Assembly: GCF_013122565.1 (NCBI RefSeq)
Contig: NZ_CP053258.1
DNA from: Escherichia coli
GTDB taxonomy: Bacteria > Pseudomonadota > Gammaproteobacteria > Enterobacterales > Enterobacteriaceae
DNA: 64,000 nucleotides
Reading direction: 5' to 3' (one strand)
Position 1 is the first letter of the stretch. The number at the start of each line of letters is the position of its first letter. Shown piece after piece: positions 18,001-21,000 of the stretch. The position numbers are program-made.

Positions 18001-21000
18001 TCGCCTTTGACGCCGGAGCGATAAATACAGTCAGCTTTGTCAGGTTCAACAATAATGCTGTGCAGATTTTGCGGGCTGTAGACGTCGACCAGATAACCCA
18101 GCACACCACCGGCCATTGCACCGACACCGGCTTGCAGCAGAACGTGTGTCGGGGTTACGCCCATTTCACGCATTTGCTCGACGGCTTCATCTGCCAGTGT
18201 TGCGTAGCCTTGCATGATCCAGGTTGGGATTTTAGTGTAACCTTCCCATGCCGTGTCCTGTACCACTTCCCAGCCGTGCTGCTGCGCGTGTTGCATGGTC
18301 AGGCGAACGGTATCGTCATAGTTCATATCCGTGACGATGCACTCGGCACCGAGGTTCAGAATGGCGTCAACGCGTTCCTGAGCAGAACCTTTCGGCATGT
18401 AAATCACCGCATTCTGTCCGAGTTGCTGTGCTGCCCACGCCACACCGCGCCCGTGGTTGCCGTCGGTGGTGGTCGCGAAAGTCATTTTTTCGCCGATGGC
18501 ATTTTTCAGGTGCTCAAATGACAGCGTTTCGATATCAAGATGATATTTTTCACACAATAATTGAGCGATGGCGTACGCACCGCCGAGCATTTTGAAGGCG
18601 TTCAGACCGAATCGTTTTGATTCGTCTTTGACGAGAATTTTCTTCACACCAAAAAGGTTTGCGAGATCGTCCAGCGCACAAAGCGGTGTTGGGCGATAAC
18701 CAGCTATTTTCTGGTGGAACTGGCGCGCCAGTTTGGCCTGGCTTTGCGAAAAGAGCGGTGATGTTTCGCCGTTGAAAAATTTGTTATCGGCGATATCAAT
18801 CTTCAATGAGAAAACGGACATATCCTATCCTTTTGGCCTCTGGAAATAGAGGGCCGACCAGCTGATCGGCCCGAGGGGTTATTTCACGCGTTCTTGCGCT
18901 TCTTTCAGCAGTTGCTCGAGCAGTGCACCTGGTTTGGCGTATTTACGGGACAGGATCATCGCGGCGATGATATAAGGCTTCCAGCTGGCTTCTTTGTAGG
19001 TAGCGATACGGTATTTTTCGAATACGCCTTCAGTCACTTCACCTTCTTTGCAGGATACGCCGCTGATATCAGCTGGCAGGCAGTGCATGTACAGGGCTTC
19101 GCCATCACGGGTCAGTTCCATCATCTCTTCAGTACAATGCCAGTCTTTGTGTTGCGCGTTCTGTGCCAGACACTGTTTTTCCAGTGCTTTTAAGCCTTCG
19201 TGGTCGTTTGCACGCAGCAATTCAGTACGCTCTTCCATCACTTTGTAAGGTGCCCATGACTTCGGATAAACGATGTCTGCGTCTTTGAAGGCTTCTTCCA
19301 TGCTGGTGACCTGACGGAAGCTACCACCGGAGGCTTTAGCATTGTTTTTCGCCACTTCAACCACATCCGGGATCAGGTCGTAGCCTTCCGGATGGGCCAG
19401 GGTGACATCCATACCGAAGCGAGTCATCAGACCGATGATGCCTTGTGGTACAGAGAGCGGTTTGCCATAGCTTGGGGAGTAGGCCCAGGTCATGGCGATT
19501 TTTTTACCTTTCAGGTTTTCCAGTGAACCAAAGTGTTCACGTAACCATGCCAGGTCAGCCATTGACTGAGTCGGGTGGTCAATATCACATTGCAGGTTCA
19601 CTAAAGCCGGACGTTGCGGCAGAACACCCTGCTTGTAACCGTCATCAAGTGCAGCGCCAACTTCACGCATATAGGCGTTGCCTGCGCCCAGATACATATC
19701 GTCGCGAATACCAATAGCGTCGGCGCAGAAGGAGATCATATTGGCGGTTTCACGCACGGTTTCGCCGTGAGCGATTTGTGATTTGCCTTCGTCGAGATCT
19801 TGCTGTGCAAGGCCGAGCAGGTTAAGCGCGGAAGCATAAGAGAAGCGGGTACGAGTGGAGTTGTCGCGGAATACGGAAATACCTAATCCACTGTTAAAGA
19901 CTTTGGTTGAGATGTTTTCAGCACGCAGTGCTTTTAATGCTGCGGCAACGTCCAGTACTTGTTTCAGTTCATCTGGCGTCTGTTCCCACGTTAACAAAAA
20001 ATCTTTCTCGTGAAGGTGAGAGGTCAGCGAATTGATATCCTTAATCAGCTCATTAACAGTTTTCATCATAAAGTCCCGGTAGTGGAATGACAGGCAAAGT
20101 GGTTTATTTCACTGTGACTTGCCAAAGTGATTGGTGTTTTCACAGCTATACTTGGGACTAACAATAAGTGTGCCAGAATTATCCACGGGGCTGCAAAAGA
20201 CTAATTTGACGGATAATGTGTGGGGTTGATCACAAATTGATGCCAGCTTCCGGTTGTTTGTAAAATACGAAAACGTTTGGCTTTTTTTATCGCGTTATTT
20301 ATTTGCTGCTAAGTATCAGAAATAAGATAAAGGGGCAGGCTATCCCTCGTCAGTTTGATAAACTCACCGCCGTAATTCTCATATTGATATAGAAATGTGA
20401 TATCTCTTCCATAATTTCATTAGAAAGTGATAAAAATCTTATGTTTTTATCAAAGCCAATTTCGCCTGAGTTAATATCATCATGATCTGTGAACCATCAA
20501 CGTCTTCAATGATCGACTTTTAAGTAAGTCTGGAAGGTAAAGCTATGGAGCTTGCTACTACGCAGTCAGTATTGATGCAAATTCAACCGACAATTCAGCG
20601 TTTTGCCAGAATGCTTGCCAGCGTTTTGCAGCTTGAGGTTGAGATCGTTGATGAAAACTTGTGTCGCGTCGCCGGAACTGGCGCGTATGGGAAGTTTCTT
20701 GGTCGCCAGTTGAGCGGCAACTCACGCCTGCTCCGCCACGTCCTGGAAACGAAAACTGAAAAAGTTGTGACACAGTCTCGCTTCGATCCCCTTTGTGAAG
20801 GTTGCGATAGTAAAGAAAATTGCCGCGAAAAAGCATTTCTGGGTACGCCTGTCATTTTACAGGATCGTTGTGTTGGGGTGATAAGTTTGATTGCCGTTAC
20901 CCACGAGCAACAAGAGCATATTAGTGATAATTTACGCGAATTTTCTGATTACGTTCGCCATATATCCACCATTTTTGTTTCGAAACTTCTGGAGGATCAG

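What the first reader, a model, noticed from the sequence alone, without database searches (positions are those of the whole stretch)
20070..20544. ygeW/ygeV divergent control region: perfect palindrome and a weak sigma54-like element
The 475-bp intergenic region contains TGATAAAAA-N7-TTTTTATCA (20428-20452). On the minus strand near 20160-20177 it contains CTGGCAC-ACTTA-TTGTT, a perfect -24 TGGCAC but an imperfect -12 (TTGT instead of TTGC), upstream of ygeW. Given the adjacent enhancer-binding protein, this may be the ygeW promoter with an upstream binding site.
Basis: seen in the sequence. Interest (0 to 1): 0.35.

Follow-up and report, generated by a model that had tools for sequence, protein, structure and literature searches.

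The report
Known ygeW sigma-54 promoter, misassigned enhancer

Summary
Both observations are exact. TGATAAAAA-N7-TTTTTATCA lies at 20428-20452. CTGGCACACTTATTGTT lies on the minus strand at 20160-20176, 80 nt upstream of ygeW.

The sigma-54 element is already published. The same 17-mer is sigma-54 ChIP-seq site OS30 upstream of ygeW (Bonocora 2015), and RpoN holoenzyme binds this spacer in vitro (Shimada 2021). It is conserved in 10/10 enterobacterial orthologous spacers, and 9/10 keep the odd -12 TTGT.

The palindrome is probably not the enhancer. Its arms are conserved only in close relatives (Citrobacter MAG, metagenomic L091). In five more distant spacers they are at background.

A different 15-bp palindrome, TTcTCAtatTGATAt (20376-20390, about -234), is 12-15/15 conserved in every spacer. 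It recurs upstream of the ygfK, xdhA and ygfT/uacT sigma-54 promoters. It also matches the published UAS motif (TTATCA-N3-TGATAA) of DioR, the clostridial homologue of YgeV, whose HTH helix is nearly identical.

CRP also binds this spacer (published EMSA).

The palindrome sits about -44 from a conserved candidate ygeV -10. It is best read as a lineage-specific operator of unknown partner. Interest is low to moderate.

The parts
20160..20176 (-). Sigma-54 promoter of the ygeW operon: CTGGCAC-ACTTA-TTGTT, with GG at -25/-24 and GT instead of GC at -13/-12. The predicted start is about 20149, giving an 80-nt leader to the ygeW ATG at 20069.
   Evidence: for the sequence. The 17-mer is identical to ChIP-seq site OS30 (PMC4591121). 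gSELEX gives an RpoN holoenzyme peak in this spacer. It is 14-17/17 identical in 9 orthologous spacers that are otherwise 42-68% identical.
20376..20390 (.). Best candidate YgeV (DioR-type) enhancer site: TTCTCA-TAT-TGATAT, centred at -234 from the predicted ygeW start.
   Evidence: It is 12-15/15 identical in all 9 other spacers. It is the top hit in the 64-kb window for a matrix built only from published clostridial DioR sites. It ranks second for a matrix built only from non-E. coli orthologues.
20347..20361 (.). Weaker second DioR-type site: TCGTCA-GTT-TGATAA, centred at -205. Its TGATAA half (20356-20361) is invariant in 10/10 spacers.
20428..20452 (.). It is centred at -291 from the ygeW start and 105 bp upstream of the ygeV ATG. 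It consists of two outward-facing TGATAA/TTATCA half-sites. Its function is unresolved; it is conserved only in the Escherichia/Citrobacter/L091 lineage.
   Evidence: chance about 5%; conservation; negative UAS score; invariant in 9 E. coli-like sequences.
20219..20234 (.). CRP-like site 1: TGTGG-GGTTGA-TCACA, centred at -77.5 from the ygeW start. The TCAC of the right half is invariant in 10/10 spacers.
   Evidence: Crp-cAMP binding to the ygeV promoter fragment by EMSA, and Crp-dependent expression, are reported in PMC6390033.
20396..20411 (.). CRP-like site 2: TGTGA-TATCTC-TTCCA. TGTGAT and the CA of the right half are invariant in 10/10 spacers.
20267..20282 (.). PurR-box-like palindrome ACGAAAACGTTTGGCT, centred at -125.5.
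   Evidence: (I1). ygeW was listed in a computationally predicted PurR regulon cluster (PMC4576408).
20472..20477 (+). Conserved TAATAT (TA-TAT in 9-10 of 10 spacers): a candidate -10 hexamer of the ygeV sigma-70 promoter. This is an inference.
   Evidence: Invariant columns. No start-site data were available. The simple consensus scan did not call it.
10530..10544 (.). Perfect TTATCA-TTA-TGATAA site, 202 bp upstream of the ygfK sigma-54 promoter (10346-10362, minus strand). Same regulon.
   Evidence: The Enterobacter sp. Bisph1 orthologue keeps AATTATCATTTTGATAATC at the equivalent place.
26195..26230 (.). Two DioR-type sites, 26195-26209 and 26216-26230, 21 bp apart. They lie at -132 and -153 from the xdhA sigma-54 promoter (26081-26097, minus strand).
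   Evidence: The xdhA sigma-54 site is OS29 in PMC4591121.

Best explanation
The 475-bp spacer is the divergent control region of the anaerobic purine/uric-acid degradation cluster.

Shown:
- RNA polymerase with sigma-54 binds the -24/-12 element at 20160-20176. It would start ygeW-ygeX-ygeY-hyuA-yqeA transcription near 20149.
- The -12 is sub-consensus (GT rather than GC). That deviation is itself conserved, which fits the weak occupancy seen in vivo.

Inferred:
- The closed complex is opened by YgeV, the enhancer-binding protein encoded next door. YgeV has a PAS domain, a sigma-54-interaction AAA+ domain and a Fis-type HTH.
- YgeV is the enterobacterial homologue and likely counterpart of clostridial DioR. 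It binds 15-bp palindromes of the type TTATCA-N3-TGATAA.
- In this spacer the sites are 20376-20390 (-234) and, more weakly, 20347-20361 (-205). YgeV reaches the promoter by DNA looping.
- The same motif serves the ygfK, xdhA and ygfT/uacT sigma-54 promoters, making one regulon.
- Crp-cAMP binds the spacer (published EMSA), probably at the conserved TGTGA-type sites. It raises ygeV expression, so the cluster is under catabolite control.

It is a lineage-restricted dyad of two outward-facing half-sites over the -35 region of the likely ygeV promoter. My best guess is an operator modulating ygeV itself, through low-affinity YgeV autoregulation or another regulator.
For: Promoter:
- The sequence is identical to sigma-54 ChIP-seq site OS30 for ygeW, and there is a gSELEX peak in the spacer.
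- It is 14-17/17 conserved where the whole spacer is 42-51% identical. 9/10 spacers keep TTGT and one has TTGC.

UAS:
- A matrix from six non-E. coli orthologues of 20376-20390 gives its best window hit upstream of ygfK, and two hits upstream of xdhA.
- A matrix from 19 published clostridial DioR sites (PMC6615313 Table S3) ranks 20374-20392, 10528-10546 and 11918-11936 as the top three of 64 kb.
- Random 300-bp windows reach the observed maxima at frequencies of 0.014, 0.004 and 0.03 for the ygeW, ygfK and xdhA upstream regions.
- In the adjacent 14 kb, the single outlier (score 17-18.6, next best 5-7) lies in the ygfT/uacT spacer.
- Enterobacter sp. Bisph1 keeps the motif upstream of its ygfK sigma-54 promoter.
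- Firmicute full-length YgeV homologues sit beside xdhABC or ygeX-W-Y, with motif sites near consensus sigma-54 promoters (three upstream of a perfect one in L004). Their HTH segment 'LGIGIATLYRKI/L' is nearly identical.

Regulon:
- The YgeV iModulon contains xdhABC, ygeWXY, ygfK and ygfT, and ygfT expression falls in a ygeV mutant.

CRP:
- ygeV is about 8-fold lower in a cya crp mutant, and EMSA is positive. The Crp site in this spacer is also mentioned in PMC12507026.

Palindrome:
- Arms 16/18 with spacer 0/7 in L091, and arms 17/18 in the Citrobacter MAG, but 5-10/18 in the five distant spacers.
- Both arm-centred windows score negative with the DioR matrix.
Against: - No experiment shows YgeV binding any of these sites in E. 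coli. The assignment rests on comparative genomics and on homology to DioR, whose motif is itself a computational prediction.
- UAS distances of -205 and -234 are long, and no IHF site was found.
- rpoN- or ygeV-dependence of ygeW transcription, and the start site, were not tested here.
- The ygeV -10 and start are inferred from conservation only; the consensus promoter scan did not find them.
- The palindrome contains the same TGATAA/TTATCA hexamers as the UAS, so a non-canonical YgeV contact cannot be excluded.
- The PWM hit inside yqeC lies downstream of its sigma-54 promoter, which is atypical.
Confidence: 0.72

Rival explanations
1. One reading: the perfect palindrome 20428-20452 is the YgeV enhancer (UAS) that activates the ygeW sigma-54 promoter.
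For: - It is a perfect dyad upstream of the promoter, and its arms carry the same TGATAA/TTATCA hexamers as the regulon motif.
- The surrounding 170 bp has the highest TGATA/TATCA density in the window: 7 observed against about 0.7 expected.
- The arms are conserved and the spacer is free to vary in L091.
Against: - The half-sites face outward with 13 bp between the hexamers, unlike the TTATCA-N3-TGATAA arrangement shared by the ygfK, xdhA, ygfT/uacT and clostridial DioR sites.
- DioR-matrix scores are negative.
- It is not conserved in five genera or lineages that keep both ygeV and the sigma-54 promoter.
- At -291 it is the most distal element.
Confidence: 0.12
2. The palindrome is the operator of a different, unidentified regulator that controls ygeV (isrR) transcription, for example the input behind the reported strong induction of ygeV by indole. 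It would bind over the -35 region of the ygeV promoter.
For: - It is centred about 44 bp upstream of the start implied by the conserved TA-TAT hexamer at 20472-20477.
- It shows the arm-conserved, spacer-variable pattern typical of dimer operators.
- ygeV is among the genes most induced by indole, by an unknown route (PMC9426417).
- It is gained in the same lineage as the PurR-like box.
Against: - It matches none of the E. coli regulator consensus sequences I tried: CRP, FNR, IHF, Fur, ArcA, NtrC, Nac, CpxR, ModE, TyrR, ArgR, AllR, Lrp.
- The ygeV start site is unknown.
- It is absent from other genera that carry ygeV.
Confidence: 0.3
3. The palindrome has no sequence-specific function. It would be a by-product of A/T tracts in an AT-rich promoter-upstream region (UP-element-like DNA) plus stray TGATA half-sites.
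For: - About 5% of random spacers of this composition contain a perfect 9-bp inverted repeat.
- The arms are mostly A5/T5 runs, and the dyad is not conserved beyond close relatives.
- Zero variants in 25 bp within E. coli is not significant (about 2 expected).
Against: In L091 the arms are 16/18 identical and the spacer 0/7, in a spacer only 51% identical overall. There is a symmetric change at arm position 8: A..T in E. coli, G..T in Citrobacter, G..C in L091.
Confidence: 0.2
4. The palindrome acts as an RNA hairpin in a long ygeV 5' leader, affecting stability or translation.
For: - The isolated 41-nt segment folds at -6.5 kcal/mol with z = -2.96.
- The series A-U, then G.U, then G-C at one stem pair is compatible only with the plus-strand RNA.
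Against: - In its 55-nt context the fold is not better than shuffles in E. coli, Citrobacter or L091 (z from -0.06 to -0.8).
- No common structure is shared across the ten orthologues.
- There is no terminator-like tail.
- There is no evidence that a transcript starts upstream of it, and there are only three distinct sequences.
Confidence: 0.06

Closest known systems
E. coli sigma-54 binding site OS30 upstream of ygeW (Bonocora et al. 2015, PLoS Genet, PMC4591121), and the putative YgeV regulon (Lamoureux et al. 2023, PMC10602906)
   Same: It is the identical 17-mer CTGGCACACTTATTGTT, in the same orientation and at the same 80-nt distance from ygeW. The divergent EBP gene ygeV is the same. The regulon members xdhABC, ygeWXY, ygfK and ygfT all lie in or next to this window.
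   Different: Nothing differs for the promoter. Those papers do not define the YgeV binding site and do not mention the palindrome.
DioR regulon and UAS motif of Clostridiales (Nie et al. 2019, BMC Genomics, PMC6615313, Table S3)
   Same: - The target genes are the same: dpaL/ygeX, ygeW, ygfK, ssnA, ygeY, yqeB/yqeC, xdhABC.
- The palindrome is the same. C. botulinum ATTTATCATAATGATAAGG and the E. coli ygfK-upstream site CTTTATCATAATGATAAGG are 18/19 identical.
- The HTH recognition segment is nearly identical.
- Sites lie 70-240 bp upstream of -24/-12 promoters, often in tandem.
   Different: - The proteins are only 35-39% identical overall.
- The E. coli ygeW site is a degenerate version (TTcTCA...TGATAt).
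- E. coli adds CRP and possibly PurR inputs.
- In Clostridia dioR itself has a sigma-54 promoter; E. coli ygeV apparently does not.
pspG promoter of E. coli (PspF-dependent sigma-54 promoter)
   Same: It is a confirmed sigma-54 site with the same non-consensus -12 TTGT: TTGGCATGATTCTTGTA in Table 1 of PMC4591121.
   Different: It has a different activator and regulon. It is cited only to show that a GT at -12 has precedent.
Fur box (GATAATGATAATCATTATC)
   Different: The Fur hexamers are 3 bp apart; here they are 13 bp apart. There is no match within 6 mismatches of the 19-mer.

Membership tests
Sigma-54 (-24/-12) promoter | GG at -24/-25 inside TGGCAC | tested here: met
   CTGGCAC lies at 20170-20176 on the minus strand. 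The GG is invariant in 10/10 orthologous spacers.
Sigma-54 (-24/-12) promoter | GC at -12/-13 inside TTGCW, ten bases after the GG | tested here: not met
   The sequence is TTGTT: the G is present and the C is replaced by T. The spacing is correct. 9/10 orthologues keep T, and L085 has TTGC. GT at -12 has precedent at pspG.
Sigma-54 (-24/-12) promoter | Sigma-54 holoenzyme occupies the site | not testable with these tools
   Literature only. ChIP-seq site OS30, 3-fold above threshold (PMC4591121). gSELEX peak of 53-55% in the ygeV/ygeW spacer (PMC8743547).
Sigma-54 (-24/-12) promoter | Transcription depends on rpoN and on an enhancer-binding protein | not testable with these tools
   Indirect evidence only. 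The adjacent ygeV encodes Sigma54_activat plus HTH_8 domains. ygeWXY is in the YgeV iModulon.
   The halves face outward with 13 bp between the hexamers. DioR-matrix scores for the arm-centred windows run from -5.6 to -26.5.
   Arms are 5-10/18 identical in five distant spacers, where the sigma-54 element is 14-16/17.
DioR/YgeV-type enhancer site (UAS), tested on site 20376-20390 | Matches the motif, is conserved, and recurs upstream of the other sigma-54 promoters of the regulon | tested here: met
   It is the top window hit for the clostridial matrix and is 12-15/15 conserved. The motif recurs at ygfK, xdhA and ygfT/uacT in E. coli, and at ygfK in Enterobacter.
DioR/YgeV-type enhancer site (UAS), tested on site 20376-20390 | Bound by the regulator protein | not testable with these tools
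   No YgeV or DioR binding experiment was found in the searchable literature.
CRP site | TGTGA-N6-TCACA dyad that is conserved, plus CRP binding | tested here: inconclusive
   There are two candidates, with 1 and 2 mismatches, and their critical bases are conserved. EMSA shows that Crp-cAMP binds a ygeV promoter fragment, but the authors' predicted site (AAAGGGGCAGGCTATCTCTCTT, about 20329-20350) is not CRP-like. Which site is used is unknown.
Intrinsic terminator / structured RNA | Stable GC-rich stem followed by a U-run, or a fold better than shuffles that is conserved | tested here: not met
   No terminator-like site was found. The stem is AU-only. In context z runs from about -0.1 to -0.8 in the sequences that carry the palindrome, and no shared fold appears across orthologues.

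The most novel reading that the evidence does not exclude
The perfect palindrome is a separate, lineage-specific operator over the ygeV (isrR) promoter. It would be bound either by YgeV in a non-canonical, outward-facing half-site mode (autoregulation) or by an unknown regulator that transmits the indole or purine signal. It would have been acquired together with the PurR-like box in the Escherichia/Citrobacter lineage that also carries xdhABC next to ygeV.
Probability: 0.3. Interest if true: 0.4.

Novelty: already known. Interest (0 to 1): 0.25.

Why it matters
This spacer switches on the E. coli genes for anaerobic uric-acid and purine degradation. Gut bacteria use that pathway to lower host urate. 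A 2025 study replaced this very spacer with synthetic promoters to build an anti-gout probiotic (PMC12507026). YgeV (IsrR) also affects EHEC virulence gene expression (PMC9426417).

The promoter itself is published. What this analysis adds is a concrete, testable map. The YgeV enhancer is most likely the DioR-type TTATCA-N3-TGATAA motif, found at four or five sigma-54 promoters of the cluster. The conspicuous palindrome is a different element. This ties an E. coli 'y-gene' regulator to a motif predicted in Clostridia. It also tells experimenters which bases to mutate.

Tried and rejected
- **Terminator or RNA hairpin for the palindrome.** No terminator-like site was found. The fold is significant only out of context.
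- **Known regulator consensus sequences over the spacer.** I tried FNR, IHF, Fur, ArcA, NtrC, Nac, ModE, TyrR, ArgR, AllR, Lrp, CpxR and NarL. None matched the palindrome. Only the CRP-like, PurR-like and TGT-N10-ACA patterns matched elsewhere in the spacer.
- **Sigma-70 promoter scan.** The two weak hits were no more than the shuffles give (1.9 expected). The TTGATG-N18-TAAAAT hit at 20237-20266 is not conserved.
- **NtrC as the activator.** RpoN holoenzyme binding to the spacer was about the same with NtrC as without it (55% against 53%).
- **The published predicted CRP site for ygeV (window about 20329-20350).** It has no TGTGA or TCACA and is not conserved, so I rejected it in favour of 20219-20234 and 20396-20411.
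- **The genome-contig scan with full-length YgeV.** Conserved AAA+ peptides swamped it (600 rows), and it gave only one true enterobacterial orthologue. I recovered further orthologous spacers through N-terminal-domain homologues and contig look-ups.
- **Within-E. coli polymorphism.** It is too sparse to test the palindrome: 0 variants in 25 bp against about 2 expected.
- **A DnaA-box-like TTATCCACG at 20180-20188.** Seen by eye. It is not conserved in the Citrobacter MAG, and I dismissed it as chance without a formal count.
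Full report
**Observation.**
The sequence is as described. The spacer 20070-20544 is 475 bp. It separates ygeW (18879-20069, minus; knotted carbamoyltransferase YgeW, E = 8.5e-249) from ygeV (20545-22323, plus). YgeV is a sigma-54-dependent regulator with a PAS domain at residues 162-205, a Sigma54_activat domain at 272-439 and an HTH_8 domain at 548-587.

TGATAAAAA-TCTTATG-TTTTTATCA occupies 20428-20452. It is the only perfect 9-bp inverted repeat in the spacer. The reverse complement of 20160-20176 is CTGGCAC-ACTTA-TTGTT. It is the only match with one mismatch or fewer to TGGCAC-N5-TTGCW in the window.

Neither feature is statistically compelling alone. About three such sigma-54 matches are expected per 64 kb. 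About 5% of random spacers of this composition contain a perfect 9-bp inverted repeat. The window is E. coli, closest to O157:H7. The spacer is present in 5180 of 5426 complete E. coli genomes at 95-100% identity.

**The sigma-54 element is real and already published.**
- Bonocora et al. 2015 list sigma-54 ChIP-seq site OS30 with the motif CTGGCACACTTATTGTT. It is on the ygeW strand, 80 nt from ygeW, with a PSSM score of 9.8 and a signal 3-fold above threshold. It is one of eight novel intergenic sites next to a correctly oriented gene.
- The predicted start at 20149 reproduces that 80-nt distance.
- Shimada et al. 2021 found an RpoN-holoenzyme gSELEX peak in the ygeV/ygeW spacer: 53% without NtrC and 55% with it.
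- Lamoureux et al. 2023 place ygeWXY, xdhABC, ygfK and ygfT in a 'YgeV iModulon'.

I collected nine orthologous ygeW-ygeV spacers. They come from a Citrobacter MAG, Enterobacter sp. Bisph1, Raoultella, Klebsiella grimontii, and unnamed assemblies and metagenomes. The 17-mer is 14-17/17 identical in them, while the whole spacers are 42-68% identical outside the near-identical E. coli-like ones.

Nine of ten keep the non-consensus T at -12, and one has canonical TTGC. So the 'imperfection' is a conserved property, not decay. A confirmed E. coli promoter, pspG, has the same TTGT.

**The palindrome is not the conserved upstream element.**
Phylogenetic footprinting shows four conserved blocks upstream of the promoter:
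- a CRP-like TGTGG-N6-TCACA at 20219-20234 (-77.5);
- TGATAA at 20356-20361;
- TTCTCATATTGATAT at 20376-20390;
- AAATGTGAT-N6-T.CATA.TT at 20393-20416.

A TA.TAT hexamer at 20472-20477 is also conserved.

Its arms are 17/18 identical in the Citrobacter MAG. They are 16/18 in L091, whose 7-nt spacer is 0/7 identical and whose whole intergenic spacer is only 51% identical. In the five more distant spacers the arms are only 5-10/18, which is background.

**What the enhancer most likely is.**
The block at 20376-20390 is a 15-bp dyad of the form TTATCA-N3-TGATAA. Four tests support it as the enhancer.

1. A matrix built only from the six non-E. coli orthologues of this block was scanned over the whole window. 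Its best hit is CCTTATCATTATGATAAAG at 10528-10546, 202 bp upstream of the ygfK sigma-54 promoter. Two further hits lie 132 and 153 bp upstream of the xdhA sigma-54 promoter.

2. Nie et al. 2019 reconstructed a clostridial EBP regulon, DioR. It comprises dpaL (ygeX), ygeW-ygfK-ssnA-ygeY, yqeB/yqeC and xdhABC. Its listed UAS sites include ATTTATCATAATGATAAGG and TATTATCATTTTGATAATA. A matrix from 19 of those clostridial sites ranks 20374-20392, 10528-10546 and 11918-11936 as the top three positions in the 64-kb E. coli window. In the adjacent 14 kb it gives a single outlier, AAATATCAATATGAGAAAA, in the ygfT/uacT spacer.

3. Enterobacter sp. Bisph1 keeps AATTATCATTTTGATAATC about 180 bp upstream of its ygfK sigma-54 element, in an otherwise diverged spacer.

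4. Full-length YgeV homologues in Firmicutes (36-39% identity) sit beside xdhABC or ygeX-ygeW-ygeY. Motif sites lie near consensus sigma-54 promoters, three of them upstream of a perfect one in L004. Their HTH segment LGIGIATLYRKI/L is nearly identical to YgeV's.

Together these make YgeV the likely enterobacterial counterpart of DioR, with the same DNA specificity. The palindrome has the right hexamers, but they face outward and lie 13 bp apart.

**Other inputs.**
Li et al. 2018 showed that ygeV, ygeW and xdhABC belong to the Crp-cAMP-activated group. ygeV is about 8-fold lower in a cya crp mutant. The ygeV and xdhA promoter fragments bind Crp-cAMP in EMSA. Their software-predicted site (about 20329-20350) has no TGTGA and is not conserved. 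The two conserved CRP-like dyads found here are better candidates.

A 2025 study of the reductive uric-acid pathway replaced 'the native Crp-binding site' of this spacer with synthetic promoters to build a urate-lowering probiotic.

ygeW appeared in a computationally predicted PurR regulon cluster.

**What the palindrome may be.**
It is centred 105 bp upstream of the ygeV ATG. If the conserved TAATAT at 20472-20477 is the ygeV -10, which is an inference, the palindrome centre lies at about -44, over the -35 region.

The pattern of conserved arms and a free spacer, together with a symmetric change at arm position 8, fits a dimer operator. That change runs A..T in E. coli, G..T in Citrobacter and G..C in L091. 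It also fits a plus-strand RNA stem, but folding in context is no better than shuffles and no shared fold exists across orthologues.

The palindrome matches none of the regulator consensus sequences tried. ygeV is strongly induced by indole through an unknown route. I therefore rank the readings as follows:
- an operator acting on ygeV, bound by YgeV itself or by another factor;
- chance AT-tract symmetry;
- an RNA hairpin.

**Verdict.**
The promoter half of the finding is correct and already known. The palindrome is real, but its assignment as the enhancer is probably wrong.

The incremental result is a regulon-wide assignment of the DioR-type motif to E. coli YgeV. I found it in none of the papers that the library holds on ygeV or DioR. 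It extends a known kind of system rather than adding a new one. No E. coli YgeV binding experiment exists, so the assignment remains an inference.

Noticed in passing
window 11918-11936 (inside yqeC) and 11677-11693: A high-scoring DioR/YgeV-type site, TTTTCTCAATGTGAGAATG, lies inside yqeC. It is about 215 bp downstream of the predicted start (about 11705) of the published intragenic sigma-54 promoter PyqeC (GAGCACGAACCTTGCA), which drives yqeB. That is an unusual downstream position for an enhancer. It may link yqeB to YgeV, as in the clostridial DioR regulon.
   Followed up: partly
L092:4720-4738 and about 4866-4885 (ygfT/uacT spacer, just outside the window's left end): A single strong YgeV-type site lies between the divergent ygfT and uacT genes. 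On the uacT side there is CTGGCACTCCACGAGCAT (GG-N10-GC). It is a sigma-54-like element that does not appear in the part of the published ChIP-seq table I saw.
   Followed up: partly
window 20267-20282: A PurR-operator-like palindrome, ACGAAAACGTTTGGCT, sits between the sigma-54 promoter and the enhancer sites. It is conserved in E. coli, the Citrobacter MAG and L091, but absent from the Klebsiella, Raoultella and Enterobacter spacers.
   Followed up: partly
window 20219-20234 and 20396-20411, compared with 20329-20350: Two conserved CRP-like dyads are better candidates for the experimentally shown Crp-cAMP binding than the site predicted in the original paper, which lacks a TGTGA/TCACA core.
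   Followed up: partly
window 20299-20480: This stretch has the highest density of TGATA/TATCA pentamers in the whole 64-kb window: 7 in 170 bp against about 0.7 expected. It includes isolated half-sites at 20398 and 20475 and a weak full site, ATATCATCATGATCT, at 20474-20488.
   Followed up: partly
window 20095-20104 and 20123-20132 (ygeW 5' leader): A direct repeat, CAAAGTGGTT / CAAAGTGATT, recurs 28 bp apart in the predicted 80-nt ygeW leader. The Klebsiella/Enterobacter-type leaders instead share a GCGAC.GCCAGCGCT block that E. coli lacks.
   Followed up: no
L083:5506-6010 (aligned to window about 20437-20455): In one metagenomic orthologue, the place of the palindrome is taken by TTGGCACCTTTTTTCAG on the ygeV strand. 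This is a -24-like TGGCAC without a -12 GC, flanked by its own A6/T6 inverted repeat.
   Followed up: no
window about 27275-27348 and about 29.7-40.5 kb onward: Beyond xdhA and actS(ygeR) lie a tRNA-Gly gene and type III secretion genes (sctC, sctN, sctV-type and others), which I take to be the ETT2 island. This AT-rich DNA inflates chance matches to AT-rich motifs in the right half of the window.
   Followed up: no
L003 (Citrobacter werkmanii), 9697-9841: A second, paralogous YgeV-like regulator (38% identity; HTH LGISIATLYRKI) sits divergent to a ygeX/ygeY-like pair. Its spacer holds TCGTTTCATTTTGATAAAT and a TGGTAAGCATTTTGCT sigma-54-like element, which suggests a sister regulon with a related motif.
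   Followed up: no
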